From the IMG/VR virus record IMGVR_UViG_3300030372_005500: 20,000 nucleotides of DNA, one strand, 5' to 3'. Under the pieces are notes generated by a model. It was not told the DNA's origin, made no database searches, and was given only the letters and a program-made list of their open reading frames with translations. Origin of the DNA: an uncultured virus (IMG/VR IMGVR_UViG_3300030372_005500). Lineage: Duplodnaviria > Heunggongvirae > Uroviricota > Caudoviricetes. Of the stretch, positions 3-20,000 are shown one piece after another. The stretch's first letter is position 1, and the number at the start of each line of letters is the position of its first letter. A program made the translations under genes and the position numbers.

Positions 3-2567
3 TCCAATGGTAAAAACCTCGAAGCAGTATTCCAATCATCGGCCAATATGTATTGTCCTGAGGGTAATTTCCCAATAATACAATCAGAATCTATACCAGT
101 ACATTCCACACAGACATTACAATTACCAACAGAATACGATACAAGCCTAACATCAACAAGTTGGGACCGTACATATCATAGAGTAAATTCATTTATCTAT
201 CCAAATCAACCTTATCTATTTGTATTTCTTTTAGAATTAGAAGAATCAAATCCAATTATATCATGGACTGCAGAAGATGCAAATGGCCCAGGACAAGAGA
301 CATTCATTAGATATGGAGAATATAATTTTAGCAATCCATTTAATGATGATGGGCAATTAAATTACTTAAGAAATCCACATACTCACAATTCAAATACAGA
401 AAGAGTGCCTTTAGACTCAGGAACTTCATTTGTTTTCACACAAGGTCAATCACAAGACATGGCAGGTTATCGCTTTCATGCAGATAATACAACAGTTTCG
501 TTTATGAAAGAACTTCCAGAGGCAGTATCTCATAGTCCAGGAGCAGATGGCAAATTTGATTGGTATGATGGAGACCCTGCAGTTAATGATGATGAATTGG
601 ATTTCGTATCATTGTATATGCCCTTTATTAATCATGAAAGAAAAGATATTACTATAGAATACATGGCCTTGGCTTATGAACTTCAAGATGATGGAGATGT
701 ATTTTTGAAGCAGTGGATGAATGCCTCAAGAATGGGTTGTTTCAATGACACAAGACCTCAAGGTACTGGTTTTTCAAGTTCTTCAGCAAACTGGGATAAT
801 ATGTGTGAAGATCCATTAGATACGGAAGATTATTATGGAATGAGTGAAATGTTAGATGCGAAACACAATTATTATTATTCTGGATTCTGGTATTTAGGAT
901 ATCCTGACGAAGGGCTTAGTATTCGGCCAATGGATGGCTCCACAGGCACAGCTCTTGAAGGTTTTAGTTGTGCATATAGTGACCTTGTTAATTGGGGTAC
1001 AAATTGCCGTAGTGATGATTTTCAAAGAAGAGCAGGAGTTCTAAATGATGAAACTACAAATCCAGAATATTTTAGAAAACAACATACAGATTATTTCTTG
1101 CATACTTCTGAATTAATACCTGAAAATGGGACAACACACATATTATATTTATTTAAATTTGCAGGAACTCACCATTGGCAATCAAATATTGAAGATGTAT
1201 GTTTTTATTGTGATGCTCAAAATCCATTCACTCCTGCAGAATTCACTTCAAGTGCAAACGAAGCAGGTACGATTCAAGAAATGAACCGAATAACTTCTTT
1301 CAATAAGGACCGAGATTCAGATGGTGACGGTAGAACTGATACCGATTGCTTGCAATATTCATGCCAGCAGAATACAACAGACATAACTTTATTGATACAA
1401 AAACCGTCTTCTAAAACTGGAGAAAGAGAATTACCGTTGCCTATCTGGGGTGTAGGGCCAAATATGACTTGCATAAGTCGGTCAACTTTTAATTTTAATG
1501 GGGTTGACCCTGGAACTATATCGTCGGATAATGTAACAACTTGTCCAGGCACCTTTTCTGCACCAATTAATGGATGGGCTAAGTATCAAGAAGTACATGA
1601 TAGGGTTGATGGCTACCGAATAGATGGAGCAAGAAATGAATTGATTGTATCAAGTGCAGATTGGTTTAATCCGTTAGGAATTTGGTGCACAAATGATAGA
1701 ATTCAATTAGGTTTTGGCGCAATAAATGGATACGGATGGAACACTGCAAAACCATGTGTTACTGATGATAGTTTGCAAGGGTGGTCAAATGCCGATAACA
1801 AAGGTGAAGATAGGGCGAGAGGAGTTTATGAGATCAATGGAAGAAGTGCTACATACACAAGCATACATGACTATGAGTTTCATTCAACAGAATTAATGGC
1901 TTCAGCATCACTTACAAGCGGTAGGTGGACTGAAGTAAAAGGAACATCAACTGGTTTTGATTATTTAGACAATACATTTAGGCATAAGATAGTTGAAAGG
2001 AACATTTATGAACTTACGATAGTCACATCTAATTATGATGTACCTGAATGTCCAGTAGGCACTACTGAAGTGGATGGTCTTAATTGTGCAGATTCAGGAG
2101 ATGTAGCACTAAGAAGTGTAATATCAGATACAGTGAATGTATTGAAAGATGTAGGACATTCTTGTAATCCCGTAAGTGTTAACTCTCAAGCGGCTTATTG
2201 GGATGTTACATATGATATGGACTGGGACAAATGTGGTAGTTCAATAAAAGATGCTATAGCAGGAGTAGCCCAATATGATTGGGGTACTTTTGTAGAAGGG
2301 GCGCAAGCACTGTATGGAAATATAGAAGATGCAATAGGAAAGGCTTGGGAGCAAATTAAAGGGCTTGGAGAATGGTTTGCTCGTGTTGCAGTAGATGCAA
2401 TGGGCATAATAACAAGTTTATTCCATGAGATAGGAGCCCATATGGATGAAATCGTTACGGGATTCTTATATCTTGCAGGATTACTTGGACTTTCATTCTT
2501 TTTACAGATGATAGTAAGATTTGGTGCAACAATATTAATTTCTATTGAAAGAAGAGGTGCAGCATAA
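3..2567 (+). CDS. Large acidic, Cys-rich surface protein with C-terminal membrane anchor (putative virion adhesin/spike); probably 5'-truncated by the window
   Basis: Frame is open from base 3 to the ATG at 48, so the true start is probably upstream. Many N-x-S/T sequons; C-terminal amphipathic helices then hydrophobic GFLYLAGLLGLSFFLQMIVRFGATILI and a short basic tail. Shares motifs with 2635..5442. Confidence 0.7.
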   Translation, partial: SNGKNLEAVFQSSANMYCPEGNFPIIQSESIPVHSTQTLQLPTEYDTSLTSTSWDRTYHRVNSFIYPNQPYLFVFLLELEESNPIISWTAEDANGPGQETFIRYGEYNFSNPFNDDGQLNYLRNPHTHNSNTERVPLDSGTSFVFTQGQSQDMAGYRFHADNTTVSFMKELPEAVSHSPGADGKFDWYDGDPAVNDDELDFVSLYMPFINHERKDITIEYMALAYELQDDGDVFLKQWMNASRMGCFNDTRPQGTGFSSSSANWDNMCEDPLDTEDYYGMSEMLDAKHNYYYSGFWYLGYPDEGLSIRPMDGSTGTALEGFSCAYSDLVNWGTNCRSDDFQRRAGVLNDETTNPEYFRKQHTDYFLHTSELIPENGTTHILYLFKFAGTHHWQSNIEDVCFYCDAQNPFTPAEFTSSANEAGTIQEMNRITSFNKDRDSDGDGRTDTDCLQYSCQQNTTDITLLIQKPSSKTGERELPLPIWGVGPNMTCISRSTFNFNGVDPGTISSDNVTTCPGTFSAPINGWAKYQEVHDRVDGYRIDGARNELIVSSADWFNPLGIWCTNDRIQLGFGAINGYGWNTAKPCVTDDSLQGWSNADNKGEDRARGVYEINGRSATYTSIHDYEFHSTELMASASLTSGRWTEVKGTSTGFDYLDNTFRHKIVERNIYELTIVTSNYDVPECPVGTTEVDGLNCADSGDVALRSVISDTVNVLKDVGHSCNPVSVNSQAAYWDVTYDMDWDKCGSSIKDAIAGVAQYDWGTFVEGAQALYGNIEDAIGKAWEQIKGLGEWFARVAVDAMGIITSLFHEIGAHMDEIVTGFLYLAGLLGLSFFLQMIVRFGATILISIERRGAA

Positions 2568-2587
2568 TGTTTGAAAGACTAAAAATG

Positions 2588-2628
2588 TTTTTATATCTTT
2601 TAGAATCATATAGGGAGCACAAAGGAGA
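2588..2628 (+). promoter_or_regulatory. Archaeal-type TATA box and RBS for 2635..5442
   Basis: TTTTTATAT at 2588-2596 preceded by an A-rich tract; AAGGAGA at 2622-2628 just before ATG 2635. Confidence 0.45.
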
Positions 2629-2634
2629 TTTAGA

Positions 2635-5442
2635 ATGAGAGCAATATTCGTATTCATAGTATTAATGGTAAACATAGCATCACCTGCAATGGCAGATGAA
2701 GATAGTATTTTTGAAGGTAGTAAACCAATTAACATTGAACGAGTTCTTGAAGTATCTGAAGACTTATTAGTTGCTAATGCAACGGAGAATGTAAATCTAA
2801 TTAATGTAGGCGATACAGCAAATATAACACGAAATATAGAGACTTGGACTGATTTTAAAAATACAACAGGTGAAGACGGAGCTTATGTCGGTGCACCGTT
2901 TGAAGAGAATATACTTAGAGTAAATGATTCAGGTGCGGTAATCGTATCAGGGTTACTCAGAGCTCCATCGGATGCAATCATGTCAGGAGCTTCAGAAGGA
3001 TGGCTCAGGATACCTTTGAATCTTAATATTAATGAAACATACAAGAAGTGTGCATTGACTTTTAATGAAGATTACCAAACGCCACCTCTACCAGAGAATC
3101 CTTGGCAGGCATGTTCACCTAATTTAGATATAAGAATGCAGATCTACCACATAGGAAATCCTAATTCTTATAATTTGACTGCAGATGGATATCCAAGCCT
3201 ATGTTGTAAATGGGGTTCTGATTATAATCCTGGTTGGAGCGATATGGAATTATTTGATTCATATTTTGACCATTCAATAGAGCCTTTAGCACATCCAACT
3301 AAAGTATGGGACAAAGTATATCGTCACTCCCATAAAGACCAGAAATGTTCTCCAGAATTTTTTATGCCATGGGCACCACCTGGACTTGAAAGTGTAATGC
3401 CACAAGAGATAGCAGATTATTATGGTGCTACAAATCCTATGATACCTGGAGGATGTAGAGATGCAACAGATAACTCAATTCCTCTTACAGGAGACCTAAT
3501 AAGAAGAGATATAGACAATAGAACTTATCTTTGGTGGTCATTCCCATGGTATCCTGATGAACACTATGCCTATATAATAGAAACTAATAACTCAATGATA
3601 TTTCCTGAGGTATATTGGACAACTGCAGACCTTGGTGATGATGGGATAAGTAAGAGTTATTTGAAATTAGAAGATAATATGCATTATAGTTTGAAAGAAG
3701 AATGGGCATCACTATCACCAGCGACTTGTGGTGTTTCAGGTTACTTTAAAACAGATTGCGATGATAATTTGGTTTACAATAATTATACACTTCCAGTAGA
3801 CCTCGGAACTTCTGTATTATTTACAGAAGGCCATGGTTATGGTGTAAGAGGCTTTAACATTACTGATACTGCTACAACATACAATAATCTTGGTTATGGA
3901 CAGAATACACAATGGGAATATAGAACACCTCTTGATGGAATAATGTTCTATGACAGGTTAGATAGAGCATTTGATAATACTAAAGATAGATTAACATTCA
4001 CTATGCCCTTTTCATTACCAGATGTTACAAACACTAACACAACTGATTTTGAAGAGCGAGCAATAGTAACTACTTGCGTACAAGGATTAGATGATTCTTT
4101 AATGCCAATAGATGACGAGAGCTGGACATGCAATCAGCAGGTTGCAACAGACCATGTAATCATAAGTGGAAGAGATACGGACGTAGATACGGCTTCAAAC
4201 ATACTATATGCTCAGAATACATGGGGTTCTGGTATTTGTTATGATCATACAAGTGCAGTTCCTGCAGTACCTAATTGTGATGAATATGGAGATTATGGTA
4301 TATGGACTTCAAGTGGTGGTGGTTTTGAAGATACTGCATTTACTCCAGGGCGACAAGATGGAGATGAAAATCTACACGGAGCTACTTATCTAAAATACTG
4401 GATGTCTTTTGAATTTTATGACCCTCCAACTATAGATGGAGGAGGTTTAGTAGATATGAGTCCTCAATGTCAATATTCAGTTGATTTCTATACTATTTCA
4501 TGTAGAGGAGATGGAACCCGAATCTGGTTACATGACTTTGCAGGTGAAGAGATGGATGAAGATTCTCAATTAATGAATTCAATGTGGGTATTCCAGGGCG
4601 GCAATTTAACTAATGCTCACAGCACACAAGAAGCTGAAGAGGGTTATTTTGACCATAGACACTTTAGACAAGTAGGAAGTCCATTCCCTCTTTATACTGA
4701 ATCTTATACATATGCAAATAATATATCTATGTGGAATAATTCAATTAATCTTAAGCATTATAATTGGAGACCTTTCCATACTACAGAAATATCAGAAGGA
4801 ACATTAGCTAACATAAATCCAGTCCAAGTAGGTCAAATATTTGAATATCATGTTAAAGTAATACATGAGGGTGTAGAATATACGAACTGTGAAGCCTATG
4901 AAGTAGTTCAAGGAATAAAGGAAGGTAATGTAATGTTAGATAGTTATTCTTTCCAGGGTTCTGGCATGCCTCTTGAATTTGCAGAGGATGGCTTTTGTGA
5001 CGGTAAAAGTTTCAAGGAAGTATATAATTTCGTTCAACAGACTACTGAACAATGTAGGGCGTTAAATCCGAGTGGAAATGGTAAAGGTGGTTTCTGTGAA
5101 GCAGGAATGTTAAATTGGCAGACAAGAGAGCTAATAGAATTACCAGGCTTAATTAGTCAGGAAGTTAATTTAGCATTTATGTTGGAGATTTTGGCCTTCA
5201 TAGTAAATAGAATAGAAGAGAACCTAAATTCTGTTGGTCAACTTATATTGTTCCTTCTCCCATTTTCAATATTCATAGTAGGTATTGCAATAATATGGCA
5301 TGCTACCAGGATGTTAACTTTGATGATAAGAGGTGAATTAGATATGGCCTTAGAGCTTACTGACCTTGATAGGTTCGGTATTGCAGGTATAACAAAGGCC
5401 TTTACCAATTTAGATTATCTGCGGAGGAGGCCGAAAGAGTAA
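2635..5442 (+). CDS. 935-aa exported, Cys-rich glycoprotein with signal peptide and C-terminal TM helices (putative adhesin/spike)
   Basis: Signal peptide MRAIFVFIVLMVNIASPAMA with AxA cleavage site; more than ten N-x-S/T sequons; C-terminal hydrophobic segments (LILFLLPFSIFIVGIAIIW) and basic tail RRRPKE. Confidence 0.75.
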   Translation: MRAIFVFIVLMVNIASPAMADEDSIFEGSKPINIERVLEVSEDLLVANATENVNLINVGDTANITRNIETWTDFKNTTGEDGAYVGAPFEENILRVNDSGAVIVSGLLRAPSDAIMSGASEGWLRIPLNLNINETYKKCALTFNEDYQTPPLPENPWQACSPNLDIRMQIYHIGNPNSYNLTADGYPSLCCKWGSDYNPGWSDMELFDSYFDHSIEPLAHPTKVWDKVYRHSHKDQKCSPEFFMPWAPPGLESVMPQEIADYYGATNPMIPGGCRDATDNSIPLTGDLIRRDIDNRTYLWWSFPWYPDEHYAYIIETNNSMIFPEVYWTTADLGDDGISKSYLKLEDNMHYSLKEEWASLSPATCGVSGYFKTDCDDNLVYNNYTLPVDLGTSVLFTEGHGYGVRGFNITDTATTYNNLGYGQNTQWEYRTPLDGIMFYDRLDRAFDNTKDRLTFTMPFSLPDVTNTNTTDFEERAIVTTCVQGLDDSLMPIDDESWTCNQQVATDHVIISGRDTDVDTASNILYAQNTWGSGICYDHTSAVPAVPNCDEYGDYGIWTSSGGGFEDTAFTPGRQDGDENLHGATYLKYWMSFEFYDPPTIDGGGLVDMSPQCQYSVDFYTISCRGDGTRIWLHDFAGEEMDEDSQLMNSMWVFQGGNLTNAHSTQEAEEGYFDHRHFRQVGSPFPLYTESYTYANNISMWNNSINLKHYNWRPFHTTEISEGTLANINPVQVGQIFEYHVKVIHEGVEYTNCEAYEVVQGIKEGNVMLDSYSFQGSGMPLEFAEDGFCDGKSFKEVYNFVQQTTEQCRALNPSGNGKGGFCEAGMLNWQTRELIELPGLISQEVNLAFMLEILAFIVNRIEENLNSVGQLILFLLPFSIFIVGIAIIWHATRMLTLMIRGELDMALELTDLDRFGIAGITKAFTNLDYLRRRPKE

Positions 5443-6712: not shown

Positions 6713-7785
6713 TGTGGCCAGATGCACTCTTCATATACTGTATGAAGGGTTTGATACACTATACTACAGCATATCCTGATATTTCAACAGGTCAAGATGC
6801 ATTTCTGAATGATTGGGGTGTAATACTATTAGTTTCTGCAGTTGTATTATGGGTATTCAAAGAATTTTATCATTTATTCTTTGAACCAATCATTAGACCC
6901 AACCTTGTTCTGAAAGATGAGTTTCAGGAGAAAGTAGAAGGTAGGATTGTTTGGGTCAAAGGAGTAAAAGAAGGATTCTTTTACGCTTATTGGTTATTCT
7001 GGTCAGGACTCTATAGGAGATTCCCAAGGTTCCAGGGTATGGATTATCAATTTGGAGTAATGATGTTAACCTATGGATTAGTTAGAAGTTTACAGAGTAT
7101 GCATTTTCAGTTGATGGAAGTAAATATAATACCAGTATGGGGTCCAGACATGGGTATTTGGGGCCGTATCTGTTTCTATGGCAGTATCCCTTTCCTATTA
7201 GGATATATTTTAACAAACAGAGAAGACTTTGATAAATGTATAGAATTAGATGACGAAAGCCCTTACAACATCGCATTAGGTAGGAGAATGACAGAAGGCA
7301 AGGTAATCTACTTTAGACAGACAGGCCAATACTTACCTCAATTACTAAGAACATCTCAATTATGGATAGACGATTCAGTAGAATTACATCATTTTTGGGG
7401 TAGAGTGGTTATAGAGGCTACAAACATATCATACACGCCAAATCCTAATCTTGATTACTTCGTATTGCATTATGCAAATGATGCACCAGTTACTCTTGAG
7501 GATTGGCAGGGTGTAACTCACTTAGTAAGTAATGACCTAAAAGGTTCACAAAAGCTATCTGTAGCTGCTTCTGCAGCAGATCCAGACGTATTAAAGAGAC
7601 AACAAGAGAGAACTACTTTTGTTTTCAACCCAGACTGGGAGAAATTAATTCTGGAGTTAGCAGAATCAGACGGAGTTATAACTGACGAAGAGAAAGAAAT
7701 ACTTGCACGTTACAATTTAGATGCCGAAGATTTACAAAAGAAATCTAAGCAGTCTAAGCCGACTTCTGTAAGAGCTCAAGATTAA
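6709..7785 (+). CDS. Multi-pass membrane protein with soluble C-terminal domain
   Basis: 358-aa ORF with 3-4 hydrophobic segments in the N-terminal half; its 3' end overlaps the convergent ATPase gene. Confidence 0.7.
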   Translation: MMWPDALFIYCMKGLIHYTTAYPDISTGQDAFLNDWGVILLVSAVVLWVFKEFYHLFFEPIIRPNLVLKDEFQEKVEGRIVWVKGVKEGFFYAYWLFWSGLYRRFPRFQGMDYQFGVMMLTYGLVRSLQSMHFQLMEVNIIPVWGPDMGIWGRICFYGSIPFLLGYILTNREDFDKCIELDDESPYNIALGRRMTEGKVIYFRQTGQYLPQLLRTSQLWIDDSVELHHFWGRVVIEATNISYTPNPNLDYFVLHYANDAPVTLEDWQGVTHLVSNDLKGSQKLSVAASAADPDVLKRQQERTTFVFNPDWEKLILELAESDGVITDEEKEILARYNLDAEDLQKKSKQSKPTSVRAQD

Positions 7786-8611
7786 GTCTTTTAGCAGCAG
7801 CTTTACACATTGCCACAGAGGCATTTTCTACAGCTTCAGCCATGAGGTTACCAGAGTATATCTTTAGGCCTTTGAATTCATTTCTACCATTAACTAACAT
7901 CATATCTTTCTTTTCACCTTGTAGTTCTCTGATGAAGTCCATTAATGTTTCCACTTTGTTTCCTCCAGCCTTCTCAATATATCTCTGCAGTAACATTTCC
8001 TTACCTTCTTGTTCCACAGGTGCATATTGAGCTTTAATTGCTGGATCTAAATCAGGAAAGCGATGAATATATGCTTGCCTAAAGAATGGATACTTATAGT
8101 TAGATAAAGCAGTAGTAGTCGGATAGTGAACTGCTACATAACCTCTTTTTCCGTGAACTGTATAGACAGTATTGAATAAACTGATTCTATCACTAACACC
8201 AGGGTTAAGGAAACGAAGTTTAGGTAAATTAAGTATCATAATCTTTCTACGCTTTCTTACAACCATTAATGCTTGTATGATAGCTTTATTGACAGAGTTT
8301 TGCCATTCTTGGGAGAAAAGAGCACTTCCAGCTTCGTCAAGTATAATTGGTGTTTCATCATCGTTTACATCTAATAACTCAAGGAAACCAGCCCCATCAT
8401 AGGTAATCATGGTGTTTAAATCAAATTCACAGCCCAAAGCCTCACAGAAATACTGTGCCATTTGAATACTAAGAACAGTTTTACCAGTTCCAGGTATTCC
8501 TACATTAACAATAACTGCATCCCAATCATTTTTAATTCTGGCACATATCTTGTAACAGTCTTGCCTCAGCAAATCATTCTCGGCAACATAATTAGTAAGT
8601 ATAGAGCTCAC
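7754..8611 (-). CDS. Zot/pI-like (FtsK-HerA superfamily) P-loop ATPase, putative virion assembly/extrusion ATPase
   Basis: Walker A GIPGTGKT; Walker B IILDEAG followed by LFSQEW; conserved RK then hydrophobic strand (VRKRRKIMILNLP). This pattern resembles Zot/pI-type viral ATPases. No TM segment. Confidence 0.7.
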   Translation of the reverse strand: MSSILTNYVAENDLLRQDCYKICARIKNDWDAVIVNVGIPGTGKTVLSIQMAQYFCEALGCEFDLNTMITYDGAGFLELLDVNDDETPIILDEAGSALFSQEWQNSVNKAIIQALMVVRKRRKIMILNLPKLRFLNPGVSDRISLFNTVYTVHGKRGYVAVHYPTTTALSNYKYPFFRQAYIHRFPDLDPAIKAQYAPVEQEGKEMLLQRYIEKAGGNKVETLMDFIRELQGEKKDMMLVNGRNEFKGLKIYSGNLMAEAVENASVAMCKAAAKRLNLELLQKSA

Positions 8612-11345: not shown

Positions 11346-12020
11346 ATGGGCTTGCCATTTAGTGCTGTAGATTACTTTGGATTAAATCACGACTTATTGG
11401 CAAATGCAGATATATTGAAAGATGCTCATGATACTGCAGAAGTAGTATGGGACCAGGTGTTAAACACTGGAATGAGTATTAGGTCAAGGATTCCAATAAA
11501 ATACAGGCCACCAGTAGCAATCTGTATTGGTCTAAGATTATCGGGTGTAGTGTTTTCTTTTAAGACAGTAGCAGGACACTTTGGGATTAAACAGAGTAGT
11601 TTAGCAAAATATTTCAACAGAGTATCTCATTGGAAACAACCAGAGTGGATAACATTTAGTTATGATGGAGATTTGAATATTGCAGGTGAAGATATAGTTG
11701 TAGATAAAGGATTTATTAGTGTAAAACTTCCTTTGTACCTTAGATATCCTGAGATAAAAATGGGAGACATCATTGATAGTTTTAGTGCAACCCTGGGCAA
11801 ACCAGAGTTATCAAGTAAAGCGCATAAGCTATACTTAGCCTACTTAGATGAGAGGAAAGGAATAGGTGGTAGATCAATGAATGTATTTGCTGCAGCTTTG
11901 ATACTTGTATCTTCGTTAGAGAATAAAAGTAAACTATCACAGAACAATATATGCAATTCACTTGGCATTTCTAAAAGACCAATAAGGGAATGTGTCGCTT
12001 TAATAAAGGAGTGTGTTTGA
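11346..12020 (+). CDS. TFIIB/TFB core-domain homologue (two cyclin repeats, no N-terminal Zn ribbon)
   Basis: GRSMNVFAAALILVS..SQNNICNSLGISKRPIRECVALI matches the second TFB cyclin repeat and HTH; PVAICIGLRLSGVVFSFKTVAGHFGIKQSSLAKYFNRV matches the first. Confidence 0.75.
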   Translation: MGLPFSAVDYFGLNHDLLANADILKDAHDTAEVVWDQVLNTGMSIRSRIPIKYRPPVAICIGLRLSGVVFSFKTVAGHFGIKQSSLAKYFNRVSHWKQPEWITFSYDGDLNIAGEDIVVDKGFISVKLPLYLRYPEIKMGDIIDSFSATLGKPELSSKAHKLYLAYLDERKGIGGRSMNVFAAALILVSSLENKSKLSQNNICNSLGISKRPIRECVALIKECV

Positions 12021-14098: not shown

Positions 14099-14326
14099 TC
14101 ATCTCAAATATTCTTCTTGAATTATATTGATATTATGGTCGGCCTCTCTGGCCATTGTTTCTATTTTCTCATGGATTCTCCAGAAGTCAAGTTCAGCATC
14201 CTGGTCTTCCCATCTTAATACTTCATCTAAATGTATTCTATTTGCCTTAGTAAAGTTACGAACAATATGAATGAAAGCCCGTACCTGGTCAAGCTCAGGC
14301 ATTATAGAGGGATTGTATTCTTTCAA
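14099..14326 (-). CDS. Hypothetical helical protein
   Basis: 75-aa ORF, TTG start overlapping the nuclease stop. Confidence 0.55.
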   Translation of the reverse strand: MKEYNPSIMPELDQVRAFIHIVRNFTKANRIHLDEVLRWEDQDAELDFWRIHEKIETMAREADHNINIIQEEYLR

Positions 14327-15246
14327 GCTAACGCCCCCATGTAATCATATTCCTCAACATCATTTACCAAAGGAACATCAGATATTCTAATAGGTCCATC
14401 CTTTCCATATTTGTACATTGAACAAGCTTCCTTATAGTCACAGAATGAGCAGTTATATCCGTATTTGGGTGTAAAGATATCATTAGTTACTGCGTGAGTA
14501 AACTCTTTGCACAATTGCTCAAGGTATTCTGAATCAGCCTCATATCTCTCAGTCTTGTAGACTTTGCCAGATCTAAGATGATAATATAGTAAATCATCAA
14601 GAGGTTCACCATATAACTCATCAAAAGCAATAGAATAGATAGTAAACTGAGGATTATTATTCAATACATGAGCCTTGCCTTCTGGAGGATGTTTGTCTGT
14701 CTTATAATCTAAAACAATATTCTTACCGTCTTTAGTCTTATCTATTCTATCAATCACTCCAAGAAGGGGATATCCTCTCCAGTTAAATCTAAATCGCTTT
14801 TCAAGGCCAATTGGCTTCTCATCGTTAACATGTCTATCATAAAATTCACCCAGTATTCTTTCACCTAATTTCTTCATTGAGAAATACTCCAGGTGTGGTT
14901 TCTTTAGATACCATTTAATGTGAGATGCTAAAGTAACATTAACAACATCACCATTAGCTAACTGATAGGGATATATTTTGAATTCAGCATTATCAAGCTG
15001 TTTTCCTTTTAGTAATTCTCCAGAACACTGCAGACGCCATCTATACTTAAATGAATTAACAAAGCTCTCCCTGCTCTTATAGTTCCTCTTGTAAAACATC
15101 TCTACCATGTAGTGGATCTCTTTTCCAAAAGCTAATTGAGGAGAAATAGGAGGTTTCTCTTTAACAACATAATTAAGATAATATTTGAACGGACATGACT
15201 GATAAACAGATAACTTTGTAGCTGAAATGTGATTAATCTTCGCCAC
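14323..15246 (-). CDS. Cas4/AddB-like PD-(D/E)xK exonuclease with Fe-S staple
   Basis: SATKLSVYQSCP (Cys1), GKEIH, EKRF, GVIDRID, VLDYKT, QFTIY, and C-terminal CSFCDYKEAC. Confidence 0.85.
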   Translation of the reverse strand: MAKINHISATKLSVYQSCPFKYYLNYVVKEKPPISPQLAFGKEIHYMVEMFYKRNYKSRESFVNSFKYRWRLQCSGELLKGKQLDNAEFKIYPYQLANGDVVNVTLASHIKWYLKKPHLEYFSMKKLGERILGEFYDRHVNDEKPIGLEKRFRFNWRGYPLLGVIDRIDKTKDGKNIVLDYKTDKHPPEGKAHVLNNNPQFTIYSIAFDELYGEPLDDLLYYHLRSGKVYKTERYEADSEYLEQLCKEFTHAVTNDIFTPKYGYNCSFCDYKEACSMYKYGKDGPIRISDVPLVNDVEEYDYMGALA

Positions 15247-15640: not shown

Positions 15641-15650
15641 CGATAAAAAC

Positions 15651-15875
15651 ATGGGACGCAAACTAATAACAGGATATACAGTTGAAAGGAACAAGGAATG
15701 GTACCTTGCAATAAAAAAGCAAAAGAGCAGATGTGCAAGGTGTGATGGGTCTCTCAACAGTAGTATCAAGGTCAAACAGAAGAAAAGTTGGCTTGTTGAT
15801 AAGAAGGCATATTGTGGAACATGTTCAAGAATAATAAAGGATGGAAAGAAAAATGAACAGGAAGAGAGCAACTAA
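15651..15875 (+). CDS. Basic CxxC..CxxC zinc-finger protein
   Basis: CARC...YCGTC in a 74-aa Lys-rich ORF. Confidence 0.65.
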   Translation: MGRKLITGYTVERNKEWYLAIKKQKSRCARCDGSLNSSIKVKQKKSWLVDKKAYCGTCSRIIKDGKKNEQEESN

Positions 15876-16011: not shown

Positions 16012-16135
16012 TAACATAGATAGAATAATTACAGAGATCAAAGAGAAGGAAGCTCCAGACCATATTACCTGGAGGATGGAATTAGATAATGAAATAAAGG
16101 AGAAGTTACATGCCAAAAGAACCCCTTACAATTAA
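15998..16135 (+). CDS. 45-aa peptide directly upstream of the recombinase (not in ORF track)
   Basis: MIKLDNIDRIITEIKEKEAPDHITWRMELDNEIKEKLHAKRTPYN; AAGGAG RBS. Confidence 0.5.
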   Translation: MIKLDNIDRIITEIKEKEAPDHITWRMELDNEIKEKLHAKRTPYN

Positions 16136-16679
16136 AGAACAAGATACATTATTGAAAGCTGCAGAGAAATATGGAGACTATCAACGTTGGGAAGGAAGTG
16201 AGGACAAGCTTGACACATACAAAGCTATAGCTTTCATGTTAGATACAGCATGCCATCCTTCAGTGTTGTCCGACGAGAAACATCAACTAAGAACAGTAAA
16301 AGAGAAAGGTAAAATCTATATCGAATGGAATAGGCCTAAGAAGAAAGGACATGACGCTTTTACTCGTATCAGGGCAAGTAAAAGGTTAGTCTCCTGGGTG
16401 GAAGAGTTCGTAGCATTAGAGAAGCCAGGTTATAGGCAATTTTACAATCATATGTTAAGGGCAGTAGCAGAAACAATAACAGATCCATCACGAGGATTAA
16501 CAAGAGAGAATCTATCACCTTTGGCAATAAGACATACCTTTGCAGTTAACATGTTAGATAGAGGAGTAGATGCTGAAGCAGTAAGACAGATGATGAACTG
16601 CAGTAGAAAGACATTAGAATTTTATTCAAAATACAGGAGGGATATGTTGGAGTCTAAGTTAGACGACATCGACTGGTAG
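16110..16679 (+). CDS. Catalytic-domain-only tyrosine recombinase with deviant active-site motifs
   Basis: PLTIKEQDTLL start of the catalytic domain; box I MLDTACHPSVL; PKKKG loop; box II SPLAIRHTFAVNMLDRGVDAEAVRQMMNCS..TLEFY; AAGGAG RBS. Confidence 0.85.
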   Translation: MPKEPLTIKEQDTLLKAAEKYGDYQRWEGSEDKLDTYKAIAFMLDTACHPSVLSDEKHQLRTVKEKGKIYIEWNRPKKKGHDAFTRIRASKRLVSWVEEFVALEKPGYRQFYNHMLRAVAETITDPSRGLTRENLSPLAIRHTFAVNMLDRGVDAEAVRQMMNCSRKTLEFYSKYRRDMLESKLDDIDW

Positions 16680-17060
16680 TGCGTAGAAGACACATGCAAG
16701 GTAAGCAACACCAGTACACTTTGTGTGGGCATCAAACAACCTCTGGAGAGTGGGCAAGGATGCTAAGGGATGCCAACAAAATTAACTGTAAAAGATGCTT
16801 AATGGTACAGAAAAGAATAGATCAGAAGAAGAATAAGAAGAAGTAGTTTGGTTAACAGTATATCCATTCATGATGCAGCTATAGTAGTCTCAAAATATAT
16901 ACCGTTTATATAGGCATATCAGAACAACATCAGACTATAGTCTAACATATACTGTTGCCCTACAGATAAATCCTAAGATCAATACATAAAAACACTGTTT
17001 ATCCTCTATAAACCCTCCAAAATACCAATGATTTAGATGGTTATTGTTTAATTTTACTCG

Positions 17061-17204
17061 TATATATATTTATATTTATGGGGGTATACGTATTCATAAA
17101 GTAATATATATACTAAACGTATTGGTGTAAGGGGTCCATGCGGTTATATATACTACATTAGACAGTTATATATCTAACCTGCCACGGCAGGAAAACACGG
17201 AGGA
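17061..17204 (+). promoter_or_regulatory. Cluster of TATA-like boxes, short hairpin and RBS upstream of the coat-like genes
   Basis: TATATATA-type tracts at about 17061, 17104, 17144 and 17166; CCTGCC-AC-GGCAGG dyad at 17178-17191; GGAGGA at 17199-17204. Confidence 0.55.
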
Positions 17205-17211
17205 AAAAAGC

Positions 17212-17388
17212 ATGAAATCTTTGAACCGAACCGCAGTCGCTGTTGGCACAACAGTCGGCTCTGTAAGTTCAGCATTTGCTTCAGACACAACTGACGCAAT
17301 CACTGACTTGCTACCTACTATTGTAGAATTAGCTGTAGTCATTGCATTGTTAGGAATGGTCGTAAGCATGTTGAAGAAGATGAACTAA
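17212..17388 (+). CDS. Inovirus pVIII-like coat protein paralog 1 (58 aa; not in ORF track)
   Basis: MKSLNRTAVAVGTTVGSVSSAFA|SDTTDAITDLLPTIVELAVVIALLGMVVSMLKKMN: signal peptide, acidic N-terminus, one TM, basic C-terminus. Confidence 0.75.
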   Translation: MKSLNRTAVAVGTTVGSVSSAFASDTTDAITDLLPTIVELAVVIALLGMVVSMLKKMN

Positions 17389-17401
17389 GCTTAATTGAAA
17401 T

Positions 17402-17581
17402 ATGAATTTCAATAAAGTAGCAGTAACATCTGGAGCAATCTTGGGATCTGCCCAAAGCGCATTTGCAAGCGTAGGTAACGCAACTACAGCTATAACGGAT
17501 TTACTTCCAGTTATAATTGAGTTGGCTATTGTTATAGCACTATTAGGTGTTGTAATGGGCTTGCTAAAGAAGATGAATTAA
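17402..17581 (+). CDS. Coat-like paralog 2 (59 aa; not in ORF track)
   Basis: MNFNKVAVTSGAILGSAQSAFA|SVGNATTAITDLLPVIIELAIVIALLGVVMGLLKKMN. Confidence 0.75.
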   Translation: MNFNKVAVTSGAILGSAQSAFASVGNATTAITDLLPVIIELAIVIALLGVVMGLLKKMN

Positions 17582-17593
17582 GGATATCCTTAA

Positions 17594-17767
17594 ATGAACT
17601 TCAAAAAAGTAGCGCTTAGTGCAGGAGCAACCTTAGGAGCTGTATCAAACGCAGCAGCATCAAACCTATCTGATTCAGTAACAGAATTAGTACCAATTAT
17701 TGTAGAATTAGCAGTAGTTGTCGTACTATTGACTTACGTATTAAGTGTGGTTAAGAAACTAAATTAA
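17594..17767 (+). CDS. Coat-like paralog 3 (57 aa; not in ORF track)
   Basis: MNFKKVALSAGATLGAVSNAAA|SNLSDSVTELVPIIVELAVVVVLLTYVLSVVKKLN. Confidence 0.75.
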   Translation: MNFKKVALSAGATLGAVSNAAASNLSDSVTELVPIIVELAVVVVLLTYVLSVVKKLN

Positions 17768-17776
17768 GGAGTTATT

Positions 17777-17947
17777 ATGTACAACAAAATAGCAACCTCA
17801 GTTGGTTTGACCTTAGGTGCAACATCCAACGCAATGGCAGGTAATTCTACCGACGCAATTTTGGAAATATTTCCAGTAATTGTAGAGTTAGTTATTATCA
17901 TAGCTATGCTTGGATGGATCATGAAGTTATTGAAAGGCCTAAATTAA
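17777..17947 (+). CDS. Coat-like paralog 4 (56 aa; not in ORF track)
   Basis: MYNKIATSVGLTLGATSNAMA|GNSTDAILEIFPVIVELVIIIAMLGWIMKLLKGLN; AAGGAG RBS. Confidence 0.75.
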   Translation: MYNKIATSVGLTLGATSNAMAGNSTDAILEIFPVIVELVIIIAMLGWIMKLLKGLN

Positions 17948-18022
17948 GGCGTTTTAATTAACCTCAGCTTCGCATATTTCGCCCCCCTATCGAGGAAACT
18001 CATCGGCATTTATTGCTGGGCG

Positions 18023-18072
18023 GTTACTCGGCAAAGGTAAGGTGTCACTCCCTTACCTTTCGCCCCTGTAAC
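18023..18072. other. Long stem-loop downstream of the coat-like genes (terminator, RNA stabiliser or packaging signal)
   Basis: Perfect 10-bp stem AAAGGTAAGG (18033-18042) / CCTTACCTTT (18051-18060) with an 8-nt loop, extendable by GGC/GCC and GTTAC/GTAAC. Confidence 0.65.
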
Positions 18073-18107
18073 AATTATATATGCATCCCCAATAAGGTAA
18101 CTAAAAG

Positions 18108-18254
18108 ATGACAAAAAACTCTAACAGAATCAAAACATTTCGAATCGTCGAGAAATCTAACGTTAGTGTGGACAATCCTACTTCTTTTGGCCCTTCAAAA
18201 ATTAAGATTACTATTCCGAAAGGAACTCAATTAAAAGTTAAGGAGGTCAAGTAA
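18108..18254 (+). CDS. 48-aa basic peptide (not in ORF track)
   Basis: MTKNSNRIKTFRIVEKSNVSVDNPTSFGPSKIKITIPKGTQLKVKEVK; TATA box about 27-33 nt upstream; TAATG overlap with 18254. Confidence 0.55.
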   Translation: MTKNSNRIKTFRIVEKSNVSVDNPTSFGPSKIKITIPKGTQLKVKEVK

Positions 18255-19633
18255 TGGCCGCCCAAGTATATAGAGCAAGACAATTCAAGAACGGAAAAGG
18301 ATTTGCAGTAACTACAGCTACGACTAAAGATGGCAAGGCTGATTTTACTAAAGCATTTTTTCTGAAAAACGAAGGTGAAGCTAAACAGAAATATGGAAAC
18401 CAGAAAAATAATTTTAACATAGGTAGTGCATTTGTAAGTCAAAATCCAAATTTATTCCAAGGCAAAAAAAGAAGTAATTTATCAAATCAATTAGGTGGCG
18501 GTAAAGGAAACAGATCTAACTCTGGAGCTGATTTTAAAGGTAAGTCAGGAAAGCCACAACAAAAGTTAGCCAAGCCTTTGCCGAAGCCCAGAGATGTAAG
18601 GGGAGTTCCTAATACAAGCTCCGAGATTGCTGTAAGAAGAATAGCAACAGGAGATTTTGAAGATAAACAAGTTGGAAGAGCATTCCAGAAATGGGCAGGT
18701 GTAAAAAAGATGAAGGATGGAGAATATGACTTCCAAAGAGATGACAAAACGATGGGTAAGGTTTACAATGATTATATTACAGTAAAAACTGCAGCTTCTA
18801 ATTCAACACAATATCTAAAGAATAATGACCCAGAAGCTGCCTTAGAGGAATATACAGATGCAAGCCTTGCAGCAAGCAGATTACCTAAAGAAATAAGAAA
18901 TATTAAGTCAGTTGGAGGAGGCACTTTCTTTGGAAAAGGATATGTAGGAACTATAGAAAAGAATTTCAAGAGTGCAAGTAACCAAGCTGGATATGGCGCT
19001 GCAGATAAAGCATACAAGACAGGTTGGTTCGGTAGGCCAAGTATTGCAGCTAAAATAGAACAATCAAATCTTGAGGCTATGGAAATACAAGCTAAGGCAG
19101 ATAAAGAATCTGCAAAGGCATTGTTAGAAGAAGGTAAAGAAAGGTCTTCGAGGTCTAAATCAGTTAGACTTGCTGAAATAGAGGCTGAGAAAAGAGCAAG
19201 TGCTTCTTTCTTGAATAAGATAACTGGCGGATTAGTAGGTAGAGATTCATTAGCTACATTAAGAGTTAAATCAGAAAGGGCAGAAGCAGAGGCAGCACTT
19301 AAAACAGCAAAACAAGAAGGAGCTGCTGCAGAAGAATCTGCAAAAGCACAAAGAAAAGCAATTAGCGTTCAATCAGGAGCATTCGGAGCCAGGCAAAGAG
19401 CTCAGAAATTAGAAAGCCAAGAATTAGAGAGATTAGAGCAGAGATCTGCAGAAGGCAGGCCCATAACAAAGGCAGACAAAGCCAGGCTTAAGTTTATCAG
19501 AGAATTCGGAGAACAAACGCCTTCATCTTTCGCAAGAGGTGAAAGTCAAGTTAGATCAGTAATAGCGCCTGATGCAGAGACAATCCAGGCAGCAAAAGAC
19601 TTTGAGAGAAAAAAGAGAGGTTCTAAGAAATGA
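18254..19633 (+). CDS. 459-aa basic Lys/Ala/Gly-rich protein with coiled-coil C-terminal half
   Basis: Strong AGGAGG RBS; no Cys and no TM; A/E/K/R-rich helical segments. Confidence 0.75.
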   Translation: MAAQVYRARQFKNGKGFAVTTATTKDGKADFTKAFFLKNEGEAKQKYGNQKNNFNIGSAFVSQNPNLFQGKKRSNLSNQLGGGKGNRSNSGADFKGKSGKPQQKLAKPLPKPRDVRGVPNTSSEIAVRRIATGDFEDKQVGRAFQKWAGVKKMKDGEYDFQRDDKTMGKVYNDYITVKTAASNSTQYLKNNDPEAALEEYTDASLAASRLPKEIRNIKSVGGGTFFGKGYVGTIEKNFKSASNQAGYGAADKAYKTGWFGRPSIAAKIEQSNLEAMEIQAKADKESAKALLEEGKERSSRSKSVRLAEIEAEKRASASFLNKITGGLVGRDSLATLRVKSERAEAEAALKTAKQEGAAAEESAKAQRKAISVQSGAFGARQRAQKLESQELERLEQRSAEGRPITKADKARLKFIREFGEQTPSSFARGESQVRSVIAPDAETIQAAKDFERKKRGSKK

Positions 19634-20000
19634 GTGTAAGAAATGAGATAAGGCCTTATACACGCAAGGTATATACTTCTACTCCAAAATCAGGAACAAT
19701 AAGAATCGCTATTAACAGGAACACTCCATTAGAAGATAGAAAAACTTGGCTTGGAAACACAACACCAATAAAATACAAGACAGTTCCAAGATTTAGATTA
19801 AAGAAAGACGGCAGAATTGATGCACACCAGGATACTCCATATGTAGAAAGACCAGGCAGTCCAAAAAATGTAGTATCATTAGATAAGTATGGTAATAGGG
19901 ACTTACAGACAGAAAAAGAATACTTTGGTTATGCAGGAACTTCAGATAGAGATTATCTTAAAGAAACGGCAGGTGCAGCTAAAGGCGCATCAGACAAAGC
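19630..20000 (+). CDS. Basic hypothetical protein, 3'-truncated by the window
   Basis: ATGA overlap at 19630; frame MSVRNEIRPYTRKVYTSTPKSGTIRIAINRNT... stays open to base 20000. Confidence 0.65.
   Translation, partial: MSVRNEIRPYTRKVYTSTPKSGTIRIAINRNTPLEDRKTWLGNTTPIKYKTVPRFRLKKDGRIDAHQDTPYVERPGSPKNVVSLDKYGNRDLQTEKEYFGYAGTSDRDYLKETAGAAKGASDK

What the first reader, a model, noticed from the sequence alone, without database searches (positions are those of the whole stretch)
17212..17947. Hidden tandem array of four paralogous inovirus-coat-like microproteins
Seen: four consecutive 56-59 aa ORFs, all below the ORF-track cutoff. Each has a 21-23 aa signal peptide ending AxA and a 35-37 aa predicted mature helix with a polar/acidic N-terminus, invariant P-x-I-[VI]-E-L, a hydrophobic core and a K-x-[ML]-N C-terminus. 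Known: signal peptide / acidic / TM / basic is the architecture of the Ff-phage major coat protein pVIII, normally single-copy and about 50 aa when mature. Inference: a heteropolymeric or switchable filament coat built from four unusually short subunits. Alternatives are a novel pilin set or spindle-virus-like capsid subunits.
Basis: partly seen in the sequence, partly recalled or inferred. Interest (0 to 1): 0.9.

Follow-up and report, generated by a model that had tools for sequence, protein, structure and literature searches.

The report
Four tiny archaeal virus coat proteins
Four neighbouring genes for 56-59-residue membrane proteins are real, conserved and found in ocean RNA libraries, and they most likely build the coat of an undescribed marine archaeal virus rather than of a filamentous phage.

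Summary
Four tandem ORFs (17212-17947, + strand) encode 56-59 aa paralogs with the stated motifs. They evolve under purifying selection, keep their order in diverged relatives, and are covered by RNA-library contigs from three studies.

The inovirus reading does not hold. At least 27 kb of the element was seen. It carries an archaeal TFIIB-like factor, a small tyrosine recombinase, a Cas4-like nuclease and an ATPase whose only PHROG match is the fusellovirus B251 family. No pI/Zot ATPase, Rep or coat-family match was found.

My best reading (0.58) is that these are the main virion coat or envelope subunits of an undescribed marine archaeal dsDNA virus organised like spindle-shaped viruses. The operon is followed by a conserved run of very basic proteins and flanked by large membrane-anchored surface proteins.

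Cleavage is untested. Homology to SSV1 VP1/VP3 or His1 VP21 is not demonstrable: 34 of 300 shuffles score as well. The family is tiny, with 15 representative clusters among 1.84 billion proteins.

This is a new variant of a known kind, of moderate interest.

The parts
17162..17173 (+). TATA-like promoter motif ACAGTTATATAT about 40 nt upstream of gene 1. A near-copy (ACAATTATATAT) lies at 18071-18082 ahead of the next gene block.
   Evidence: Direct repeat D5 and the sequence. RNA-library contigs start at 17185-17190. Promoter function is inferred.
17212..17388 (+). Paralog 1 (58 aa). This first-position type has no N-x-S/T sequon in its linker.
   Evidence: The sequon is absent in all 6 first-position orthologs examined.
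17402..17581 (+). Paralog 2 (59 aa), with sequon N-A-T in the linker.
   Evidence: AF2 model.
17594..17767 (+). Paralog 3 (57 aa), with sequon N-L-S.
17777..17947 (+). Paralog 4 (56 aa), with sequon N-S-T. AAGGAG lies 6 nt upstream of its ATG.
17980..18072 (+). Structured G+C-richer stretch after the array, with a 13-bp perfect stem at about 18030-18062. It may be a transcript 3' end or stabiliser.
   Evidence: -39.2 kcal/mol, z -3.0, and 1 of 200 shuffles folds as well. Inverted repeat I9. Function is inferred.
18254..19633 (+). 459-aa very basic protein (pI 10.0, 19% K+R), the first of a conserved run of basic proteins downstream. It is a candidate genome-condensing (nucleoprotein) component.
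   Evidence: Syntenic orthologs occur in L005, L009 and L012. There is no Pfam or PHROG family and no Atlas lead. The role is inferred.
19630..19998 (+). Start of a 159-aa basic protein (pI 9.8, complete in L002). Five more basic proteins (pI 9.3-10.5) follow in L002.
16110..16679 (+). Small (189 aa) tyrosine recombinase directly upstream. It is the best-conserved gene of the element (65-94% aa identity in relatives).
   Evidence: Pfam Phage_integrase E 7.6e-5, below the cut-off. phrog_1 and phrog_216 integrase. Conservation.
7754..8611 (-). P-loop ATPase of the fusellovirus B251 family, without a TM segment. It is a candidate replication or morphogenesis ATPase.
   Evidence: Its only PHROG match is phrog_5484, E 1.9e-8. 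SSV1 B251 falls in the same family at 5e-101. BLASTP to SSV1 B251 gives E 2e-6, 31% over 102 aa. No TM-like window.
11346..12020 (+). TFIIB/TFB-like transcription factor, which marks the element as archaeal.
   Evidence: PF00382 E 1.8e-6, 28.3 bits against a cut-off of 23.6.
14323..15246 (-). Cas4-like PD-(D/E)XK nuclease.
   Evidence: PF12705 E 1.4e-30. phrog_69 E 2.2e-29.
48..5442 (+). Two large acidic, Cys-rich proteins (839 and 935 aa, pI 4.4) with C-terminal TM anchors. They are candidate virion surface or adhesion proteins.
   Evidence: No family match. The role is inferred by analogy with His1 ORF26/27-type anchored proteins, described in the record notes.

Best explanation
The four genes form one operon that encodes paralogous, membrane-inserted alpha-helical subunits. 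These are most likely the main coat or envelope proteins of an undescribed dsDNA virus (or provirus) of an uncultivated marine archaeon. The virus is organised like the spindle-shaped archaeal viruses, not like an inovirus.

Proposed mechanism, with shown and inferred steps marked:
1. The four genes are transcribed from a TATA-like promoter at about 17166. Shown: RNA-library contigs span all four genes. Inferred: they form a single transcript and the level is high.
2. Each precursor inserts into the host membrane with both charged ends inside and the acidic linker outside (inferred from the charge pattern).
3. The N-terminal 21-23 residues are probably removed by signal peptidase after the near-invariant Ala. 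I put this at about 60% within this reading. The result would be a peptide of about 35 residues. Otherwise the segment stays as a weak first helix of a hairpin.
4. The linker of paralogs 2-4 is N-glycosylated, while paralog 1 is not (inferred from a position-specific sequon).
5. The subunits leave the membrane to form a mixed helical lattice or envelope around DNA during non-lytic extrusion or budding. The DNA is condensed by the basic proteins encoded directly downstream. The short basic C-tails face inward and the glycans face outward (inferred by analogy with fuselloviruses and with pVIII).
For: Real genes:
- dN/dS is 0-0.42 in 17 of 20 orthologous pairs, and 3 pairs are saturated.
- Positional orthology is kept in L005, L008 and L009. 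Position labels cluster on the tree, with 0 of 500 shuffles as low.

RNA libraries:
- X5 has a 1090-nt contig at 17190-18279 with depth 74, against 3.8-14 for the seven other X5 pieces listed in table 8 (19 further pieces across the four runs were not shown).
- X17, from the same sample, has a contig at 17256-17941 with depth 27, against 2-6 elsewhere.
- X19, from another study, has a contig at 17185-17987. X18, from a third study, covers 17636-17898.

Viral and archaeal context:
- TFIIB-like factor above the Pfam cut-off, recombinase and Cas4-like nuclease.
- The ATPase's only PHROG match is the family of SSV1 B251.
- The block recombinase, array, 460-aa basic protein, further basic proteins (pI 9.3-10.5) is syntenic in L005 and L009. 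The recombinase, the array and a basic protein of 400-470 aa after the array recur in L010 and L012 (L012 without the recombinase).
- Large acidic TM-anchored proteins and a LamG-domain protein of more than 1204 aa flank the block.
- SSV1 has the same local logic: VP1, then VP3, then basic VP2.

Architecture (43 sequences):
- K/R sits near the N-tip (net +1.3) and the C-tail is net +2.2.
- Ala is at -1 in 42 of 43, and -3 is A, V, S, T or G in 43 of 43.
- The linker is net -1.9.
- A sequon occurs in 36 of 43. The 7 without one are all first-position genes.
- Distant members P0030 and P0032 carry classical Sec-type leaders.

No rival capsid:
- Pfam found no HK97, jelly-roll, portal or terminase family in the 22 window proteins or the 8 L002 proteins. 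PHROGs, run on the 22 window proteins only, found none either.
- No other conserved small two-helix ORF shows RNA cover.
Against: - No virion has been seen and no peptide detected.
- There is no significant sequence link to any capsid family. Pfam, PHROGs, NCBIfam and PDB sequences give nothing above threshold.
- hhalign against 13 fusellovirus and His1 MCPs scores 18.3, and 34 of 300 block-shuffled controls reach that.
- AF2 gives one straight helix with a weak N-half (pLDDT 65-71), so neither a hairpin nor a lattice is shown.
- The N-segment is only weakly hydrophobic (Kyte-Doolittle 0.7-1.3 over 19 residues). That is marginal for a signal peptide and poor for a TM helix. It is also about as conserved as the linker (0.47 against 0.43 identity) and has two invariant Gly, which is unusual for a mere leader.
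- Contig depth is a poor measure of expression, contigs cannot prove one transcript, and RNA libraries can hold DNA (caveats printed).
- About 9 kb of the presumed 36.5-kb genome was not seen.
- The element was not found in IMG/VR, INPHARED phages, PLSDB or GTDB species genomes by the methods used. Its viral nature therefore rests on gene content only.
Confidence: 0.58

Rival explanations
1. The four peptides are non-structural accessory membrane peptides of the mobile element. They could act in superinfection exclusion, as viroporin- or holin-like release factors, or as secreted or anchored archaeocin-like peptides, and be expressed from the resident element.
For: - They are small single-pass peptides with leader-like N-termini.
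- Strong RNA-library cover would also fit a gene expressed from a carried element.
- No homology to any capsid family was found.
Against: - Four paralogs are kept in a fixed order with position-specific features across diverged relatives.
- They always sit between the recombinase and a conserved run of basic proteins, next to surface-protein genes.
- No partner immunity or lysis gene was recognised.
- The only microcin or holin matches are E 0.3 in 1 of 43 and E 0.057 in 1 of 22.
Confidence: 0.17
2. They are subunits of a pilus-like or adhesive filament made by a non-viral integrative element. This would be a conjugative-pilin analogue, extracted from the membrane like VirB2/CedA1-type pilins.
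For: - They are small hydrophobic helical subunits with a leader, in multiple paralogs.
- The element carries a recombinase and large adhesin-like proteins.
Against: - Pfam found no VirB4/TraC/HerA-type ATPase, VirB6-like protein, coupling protein, relaxase or prepilin peptidase family in the 30 proteins scanned (22 window, 8 L002); PHROGs, run on the 22 window proteins only, found none either.
- Prepilin motif models match only at E 2.1-3.9.
- The run of very basic proteins fits DNA packaging better than a pilus.
Confidence: 0.07
3. This is a true inovirus-type filamentous virus coat, as in the first reader's headline reading. The four pVIII homologues would coat an extruded ssDNA filament.
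For: - The architecture matches the leader / acidic / TM / basic order.
- There are sub-threshold matches to inovirus coat families.
- Atlas feature look-alikes at 0.86 carry PF05356 in 34-35% of their members, which the tool rates as a lead only.
Against: - At least 27 kb of contiguous element was seen, with large genes on both strands.
- Pfam found no Zot/pI, Rep or secretin family in the 30 proteins scanned, and PHROGs none in the 22 window proteins. M13 pI falls in phrog_1675 and phrog_197, whereas this element's ATPase falls in phrog_5484.
- hhalign to M13 pVIII gives P 0.011 and probability 3.8%.
- The C-tail carries only +1 to +3 charge.
Confidence: 0.02
4. The C-terminal half (motif, TM, basic cluster) is an archaeosortase-type sorting signal. 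In that case the products are only tiny lipid-anchored glycopeptides.
For: The tripartite layout P-x-I-V-E-L, then a TM helix, then KK at the very C-terminus after a leader resembles PGF-CTERM or PEP-CTERM signals. That resemblance is recalled knowledge.
Against: - No CTERM sorting model of NCBIfam matches any of the 43 members at E up to 10.
- The TM part is the best-conserved part of the protein (0.61 identity). That fits a functional helix better than a discarded signal.
- No archaeosortase gene was seen.
Confidence: 0.03

Closest known systems
Major capsid proteins of spindle-shaped archaeal viruses: SSV1 VP1/VP3 (Fuselloviridae, phrog_11172 and phrog_5402) and His1 VP21 (Halspiviridae)
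   Same: - Both are small, membrane-derived alpha-helical subunits encoded as tandem paralogs.
- Both have an N-x-S/T sequon just before the C-terminal hydrophobic helix, which starts ...L-[LV]-P-[LVI]... and ends in K/R.
- A basic-protein gene follows them, and the same genome holds a B251-family ATPase and an integrase.
- Chronic, extrusion-like release is described for this virus group (passages read in bioRxiv 10.1101/2021.07.29.453957).
   Different: - Those proteins are 73-92 aa when mature, with two strongly hydrophobic helices and one or two paralogs.
- Here the proteins are 56-59 aa, the first segment is only weakly hydrophobic and looks like a cleavable leader, and there are four paralogs.
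- Sequence similarity is not significant: 34 of 300 shuffles score as well, and there is no match to phrog_11172 or phrog_5402 at E up to 1.
Inovirus major coat protein pVIII (M13 gene VIII; phrog_1646; Pfam PF05371, PF05356, PF19199)
   Same: Both have the order leader, acidic N-part, one TM helix, basic C-tail. Both would be stored in the membrane before assembly. That storage step is recalled knowledge for pVIII; the M13 record notes were seen. This is what the array most likely works like if the leader is cleaved.
   Different: - There is no family membership: best E values are 0.079-0.72 in 1-3 of 22 members.
- The mature part is about 35 aa, against 50 for pVIII.
- The tail carries +1 to +3 charge, there are four genes instead of one, and the genome is a large dsDNA-type archaeal element without pI, pIV or Rep.
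Predicted capsid proteins of marine thaumarchaeal spindle viruses: NSV1 (Thaspiviridae, 81 aa) and 'Nipumfusiviridae' NYMAG-47 (89 aa)
   Same: They share a marine, low-G+C, archaeal setting. They also share small hydrophobic helical proteins found by structure or hydropathy rather than by sequence, sequons at the turn, and genomes of 27-38 kb (PMC8491892 read whole; passages of PMC10866085).
   Different: - Those are two-helix proteins present as a single gene, and NSV1 is linear with a protein-primed polymerase.
- I could not compare sequences, because NSV1 is not in the collections held.
- No polymerase gene was seen here.

Membership tests
Inovirus major coat protein (pVIII) / Inoviridae | Sequence match to a coat family (PF05371, PF05356, PF19199, PF10389; phrog_1646) | tested here: not met
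   PF19199 matches 3 of 22 members (best E 0.084). PF05356 matches 1 of 22 (E 0.72). phrog_1646 matches 1 of 22 (E 0.079). All are below threshold. hhalign against M13 pVIII gives probability 3.8%.
Inovirus major coat protein (pVIII) / Inoviridae | Small ssDNA genome with a pI/Zot-type morphogenesis ATPase (TM-anchored) and a rolling-circle Rep | tested here: not met
   At least 27 kb of the element was seen. Pfam found no Zot or Rep family in the 30 proteins scanned, and PHROGs (22 window proteins only) none. The ATPase falls in phrog_5484, not phrog_1675 or phrog_197, and has no TM segment. Strandedness of the genome cannot be tested with these tools.
Inovirus major coat protein (pVIII) / Inoviridae | Leader peptide, acidic N-part, single TM helix and basic C-tail | tested here: inconclusive
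   The hallmarks are present: Ala at -1 in 42 of 43, a small residue at -3 in 43 of 43, linker net -1.9 and tail net +2.2. Cleavage is not shown, and the leader's h-region is weak.
Spindle-virus MCP (SSV1 VP1/VP3, His1 VP21) | Detectable sequence or profile similarity | tested here: not met
   No match to phrog_11172 or phrog_5402 at E up to 1. The hhalign score of 18.3 is reached by 34 of 300 block-shuffled controls. Pairwise hhalign P values are 0.005-0.03.
Spindle-virus MCP (SSV1 VP1/VP3, His1 VP21) | Two strongly hydrophobic helices joined by a short turn (hairpin) | tested here: not met
   The N-segment reaches Kyte-Doolittle 0.7-1.3 over 19 residues, against 2.5-2.9 for the C-segment. 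AF2 gives one straight helix, not a hairpin. A weak first helix is not excluded.
Spindle-virus MCP (SSV1 VP1/VP3, His1 VP21) | N-glycosylation sequon in the outward loop before the last helix | tested here: met
   A sequon is present in 36 of 43 members. The same placement is seen in SSV VP1/VP3 and His1 VP21. Glycosylation itself is not testable here.
Spindle-virus MCP (SSV1 VP1/VP3, His1 VP21) | Genome context: B251-type AAA+ ATPase, integrase, adhesin, and a basic DNA-binding protein next to the MCP genes | tested here: met
   phrog_5484 at E 1.9e-8, and BLASTP to SSV1 B251 at E 2e-6. Recombinase. Basic proteins downstream. Anchored surface proteins and a LamG giant protein. Only the ATPase rests on homology; the rest is by analogy.
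Type IV pilin / archaellin-like | Class III (prepilin) signal peptide followed by an N-terminal hydrophobic helix | tested here: not met
   PF07963 matches at E 3.9 in 3 of 22 members, and TIGR02532 at E 2.1 in 1 of 43. The hydrophobic helix is C-terminal.
VirB2/TrbC/CedA1-type conjugative pilin | Encoded with a VirB4-type ATPase and other mating-pore genes | tested here: not met
   Pfam found no such family in the 30 neighbouring proteins scanned, and PHROGs (22 window proteins only) none. About 9 kb of the presumed genome was not seen.
Archaeosortase/exosortase C-terminal sorting signals (PGF-CTERM, PEP-CTERM and kin) | Match to a CTERM sorting-domain model | tested here: not met
   No CTERM model appears among the 15 NCBIfam families matched at E up to 10 by 43 members.

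The most novel reading that the evidence does not exclude
An archaeal dsDNA virus builds its shell from four co-expressed, signal-peptide-processed, single-helix glycopeptides of about 35 residues. One would be unglycosylated and three N-glycosylated. This would be the smallest capsid subunits known and a four-component helical lattice. It would also be a coat biogenesis route (Sec leader, membrane storage, extrusion) that converged on inovirus pVIII within a spindle-virus-like genome, or descends from a hairpin capsid protein whose first helix became a leader.
Probability: 0.3. Interest if true: 0.8.

Novelty: new variant of a known kind. Interest (0 to 1): 0.55.

Why it matters
Viruses of abundant uncultivated marine archaea are mostly invisible to marker-gene tools, because their capsid proteins are tiny, hydrophobic and fast-evolving. 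This array defines a new family with a clear signature: a leader ending small-x-Ala, a sequon, L-L-P-x-I-[VI]-E-L, a TM helix and KK. The family has only 15 representative clusters among 1.84 billion proteins.

The signature could be used to pull out a whole group of about 36-kb elements that the searches here did not find in IMG/VR, INPHARED or PLSDB.

If the leader is cleaved, it would show that the pVIII-type solution (a single-helix coat stored in the membrane) also exists in archaeal dsDNA viruses. It would also give a concrete intermediate for how two-helix spindle-virus capsid proteins and single-helix coats relate. The fixed one-plus-three split in glycosylation sequons offers a testable case of division of labour among capsid paralogs.

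Tried and rejected
- **Complex prediction.** Complex prediction on the four paralogs was never run. The queue was full, and the tool was declared unavailable. Co-assembly is therefore untested.
- **Second AF2 job.** A job on the 459-aa basic protein (alignment A9) was not accepted.
- **Fold search.** I ran no fold search on the AF2 model, because a single straight helix would match any helix.
- **Whole genome or longer records.** No genome is held for the window, and the records behind L001-L005 are not held. Circularity and the missing 9 kb or so could not be checked.
- **Genome size.** The length of 36.5 kb is only a guess. The two longest contigs are 36,665 and 72,976 bases, about a twofold ratio.
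- **Host.** Two scans of GTDB species genomes, with the array profile and the recombinase profile, found nothing. Relatives of the TFIIB-like protein are only copies of the same element.
- **IMG/VR.** Four scans (array, 459-aa protein, ATPase, recombinase) found no relative.
- **INPHARED and PLSDB.** tblastn of paralog 1, the ATPase and the recombinase found no match.
- **NSV1.** It is not held under the accession I recalled.
- **Homology to spindle-virus capsid proteins.** The recurrent alignment of the T-x-I-T-[DE]-L-L-P motif to the start of helix 2 of SSV1 VP1/VP3 and His1 VP21 looked promising. It failed the shuffle control.
- **Invertible switch.** Weak inverted repeats flank the array (16838-16860 and 18164-18186, 74% complementary) beside a recombinase. 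I rejected a switch because every locus has the same orientation and no joints were seen.
- **Rfam and tRNA.** Both scans of the window found nothing.
- **Atlas, 459-aa protein.** No usable hit.
- **Atlas, paralog 2.** Scores were 0.86-0.88, which the tool rates as leads only.
- **RNA cover elsewhere.** Parts of the window without RNA-contig cover are not evidence of silence.
- **Literature.** Four keyword searches turned up no description of this array. That cannot prove it is unpublished.
Full report
**1. Observation**

One search lists four + strand ATG ORFs at 17212-17388, 17402-17581, 17594-17767 and 17777-17947. They encode 58, 59, 57 and 56 aa and lie 9-13 nt apart. GGAGG, AAGGA and AAGGAG sit a few bases before genes 1, 3 and 4.

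The four align over their whole length at 63, 49 and 46% identity to the first, with 13 invariant columns.

**2. They are genes**

A profile search of 5.8 billion clustered proteins found 23 relatives among 194 candidates. All are 44-104 aa and from marine metagenomes, and none has a Pfam domain. An exhaustive HMM search of 1.84 billion representatives found only 15 clusters at E up to 1e-3, so the family is very small. All 15 are 26-104 aa, so there are no fused forms.

One metagenome scan returned 15 loci.
- A motif scan finds four copies in the same order in L001-L006, L008, L009 and L012.
- It finds two copies in L010, L011 and L013, one at a contig end in L007, and none in L014 and L015, which were weak 19-residue matches.

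Of 20 orthologous pairs, 17 give dN/dS of 0 to 0.42, and 3 have saturated dS. Each window paralog is closest to the gene at the same position in L005, L008 and L009.

On a maximum-likelihood tree the position labels cluster (0 of 500 shuffles as low). The four genes of L012 group together, and the two-copy lineage forms its own clade with 99/98 support. Copy number has therefore risen more than once, or copies are homogenised. The tree has only 62 columns, so deep forks are unsure.

**3. RNA libraries**

Twenty public runs hold the stretch or a part of it, and four of those are recorded as RNA. I laid those four on the whole window.
- X5 has a 1090-nt contig at 17190-18279 with word depth 74.2. 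The seven other X5 pieces listed in the contig table have depths of 3.8-14.1; 19 further pieces across the four runs were not shown.
- X17, from the same sample, has a contig at 17256-17941 with depth 27.3, against 2-6.4 elsewhere.
- X19, from another study, has an 805-nt contig at 17185-17987.
- X18, from a third study, has a 263-nt piece at 17636-17898.

The tool warns that contigs cannot prove a transcript, its ends or its level, and that RNA libraries can contain DNA. The excess of the array contig over the rest of the same element in the same run is what I rely on, and it is a hint only.

The X19 contig is a strain variant. Of 22 changed codons, 17 are synonymous. Both single-base insertions lie in the spacers between genes.

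A TATA-like word, ACAGTTATATAT, lies at 17162-17173, just before the contig starts. It recurs at 18071-18082 before the next gene block.

**4. Surroundings**

Pfam and PHROGs scans of 22 window proteins gave these matches.
- A TFIIB-like factor: 28.3 bits against a cut-off of 23.6.
- A Cas4-like PD-(D/E)XK nuclease: E 1.4e-30.
- An HTH protein.
- A 189-aa tyrosine recombinase: below the Pfam cut-off, with PHROG integrase families at E about 6e-5.
- A P-loop ATPase whose only PHROG match is phrog_5484, at E 1.9e-8.

SSV1 B251 falls in phrog_5484 at 5e-101, whereas M13 pI falls in phrog_1675 and phrog_197. BLASTP of the ATPase to B251 gives E 2e-6 over the Walker region. BLASTP to the His1 ATPase is not significant.

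L001 and L002 are the same element at 99.8-99.9% identity and run 7.4 kb past the window end. There the array and the 459-aa basic protein are followed by six more basic proteins (pI 9.3-10.5). After them come an acidic WD40-like protein and a protein of more than 1204 aa with LamG domains.

The order recombinase, array, 460-aa basic protein, further basic proteins is kept in L005 and L009 and in reduced form in L010 and L012. The window's first two genes encode 839- and 935-aa acidic, Cys-rich proteins with C-terminal TM anchors.

Pfam found no terminase, portal, HK97, jelly-roll, Zot or Rep family in the 30 proteins scanned, and PHROGs found none in the 22 window proteins. The eight L002 proteins were scanned with Pfam only.

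**5. Architecture**

The figures below come from 43 family members.
- The N-tip is net +1.3.
- A 12-residue Ala/Gly/Ser/Thr/Val-rich segment follows, with two invariant Gly four residues apart.
- Next come polar residues, then a position that is A, V, S, T or G in 43 of 43, a variable residue, and Ala in 42 of 43.
- The linker after that Ala is net -1.9 and holds N-x-S/T in 36 of 43.
- Then come L-L-P-x-I-[VI]-E-L and a strongly hydrophobic helix, ending in a tail of net +2.2.

The small-x-Ala pattern fits the (-3,-1) rule for signal peptidase I, which I recall rather than tested. Distant members P0030 and P0032 have plainly classical leaders.

Against a simple leader, the segment is only weakly hydrophobic (Kyte-Doolittle 0.7-1.3 over 19 residues). 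It is also about as conserved as the linker (0.47 against 0.43 pairwise identity, with the TM at 0.61).

AF2 with the 43-row alignment gives one straight helix over residues 3-58, with pLDDT 65-71 in the N-half and 90-97 in the C-half. It predicts no hairpin, but a monomer model cannot settle this. I put cleavage at about 60%.

The seven members without a sequon are all first-position genes: six p1 genes and the first gene of L010. That is a fixed difference between the first paralog and the others.

**6. Comparison with known families**

No Pfam, PHROG, NCBIfam or PDB-sequence match reaches significance. The best inovirus-coat matches are PF19199 at E 0.084 in 3 of 22 members and phrog_1646 at E 0.079 in 1 of 22.

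SSV1 VP1 and VP3 fall in phrog_11172 and phrog_5402, which the family does not hit at E up to 1.

hhalign places the family's T-x-I-T-[DE]-L-L-P stretch on NATLLNLVPLF of SSV1 VP1/VP3 and on TTLWELLPLL of His1 ORF21. That ORF21 is the capsid protein VP21 is my recollection. Against an alignment of 13 such proteins the score is 18.3, and 34 of 300 block-shuffled controls reach it. Homology is therefore not shown.

The likeness is one of layout: a sequon, then a helix that starts L-[LV]-P and ends in K/R.

Passages I read state that spindle-virus capsid proteins are about 80 aa with two hydrophobic segments and occur as one or two paralogs. They also state that these viruses carry a B251-like ATPase and an adhesin and are released without lysis (bioRxiv 10.1101/2021.07.29.453957; PMC10541130). 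NSV1's predicted capsid protein is 81 aa with two hydrophobic helices (PMC8491892, whole text). Marine 'Nipumfusiviridae' capsid proteins were found only by structure (PMC10866085, passages).

**7. Reading**

Five points make virion coat or envelope subunits the best explanation (0.58).
- The array heads a conserved block of basic and surface proteins.
- The element carries archaeal transcription and spindle-virus-type ATPase genes.
- The array stands out in RNA libraries.
- No conventional capsid gene was seen.
- The peptides have the topology expected of membrane-stored helical coat subunits.

In function they would work like pVIII if the leader is cleaved, or like a reduced VP1-type hairpin if it is not. 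In neither case is family membership shown.

The rivals are accessory membrane peptides (0.17), pilin-like subunits of a non-viral element (0.07), a sorting-signal-only product (0.03) and a true inovirus coat (0.02).

Earlier notes of this scan describe tandem two-helix capsid-like proteins on other marine circular elements of 26-37 kb. I treat them as context, not as support.

**8. Limits**
- No SignalP run, multimer model, proteomics or full genome was available.
- The host is unknown.
- The genome size is a guess from two contig lengths.
- Contig-based RNA evidence is weak by the tool's own statement.

Noticed in passing
window 17980-18072: A G+C-richer, strongly structured stretch lies right after the array. 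It folds at -39.2 kcal/mol with z -3.0, and 1 of 200 shuffles folds as well. It includes a perfect 13-bp stem. It has no Rfam family and is not a tRNA. It may be a transcript 3' end or stabiliser, or a recombination site.
   Followed up: partly
window 16679-16846 (+): A 55-aa very basic ORF with a C..H...C..C pattern overlaps the recombinase stop codon. It may be a small zinc-ribbon DNA-binding protein. A 365-nt AT-rich non-coding stretch full of TATATA palindromes (16847-17211) follows it.
   Followed up: no
L001 and L002 (contig starts correspond to window 16410 and 16240): Two independent long contigs of the same element both begin inside the recombinase gene. Their lengths, 36,665 and 72,976 bases, stand almost 1:2. 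This hints at a circular genome of about 36.5 kb, with one contig a head-to-tail dimer. It might also point to an assembly break at a recombination site within the gene.
   Followed up: partly
L002 3391-6176 and window 18254-19998: A run of seven consecutive very basic proteins (pI 9.3-10.5, up to 31% K+R) has no family match. The run is conserved in L005 and L009, which is unusual even for archaeal viruses. They are candidate DNA-condensing proteins.
   Followed up: partly
window 12399-12632 (+): A 77-aa ORF with two hydrophobic segments is conserved in L005. It is a possible two-helix membrane protein in the regulatory part of the element. It has no sequon, and no RNA-contig cover was seen there.
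   Followed up: partly
window 15651-15872 (+) versus 15563-15871 (-): The + strand 74-aa frame, not the longer - strand ORF, is the one conserved at protein level in L010 (55% identity). The - strand ORF is therefore probably spurious.
   Followed up: partly
L011 699-1078: The two copies in this two-gene array have identical C-terminal halves. This suggests recent duplication or gene conversion within the array.
   Followed up: no
L002 7535-11146: A protein of more than 1204 aa with two LamG/ConA-like domains (PF13385, E 4.7e-34) starts inside the end of a WD40-like, TM-anchored 473-aa protein. It is a likely host-attachment module.
   Followed up: no
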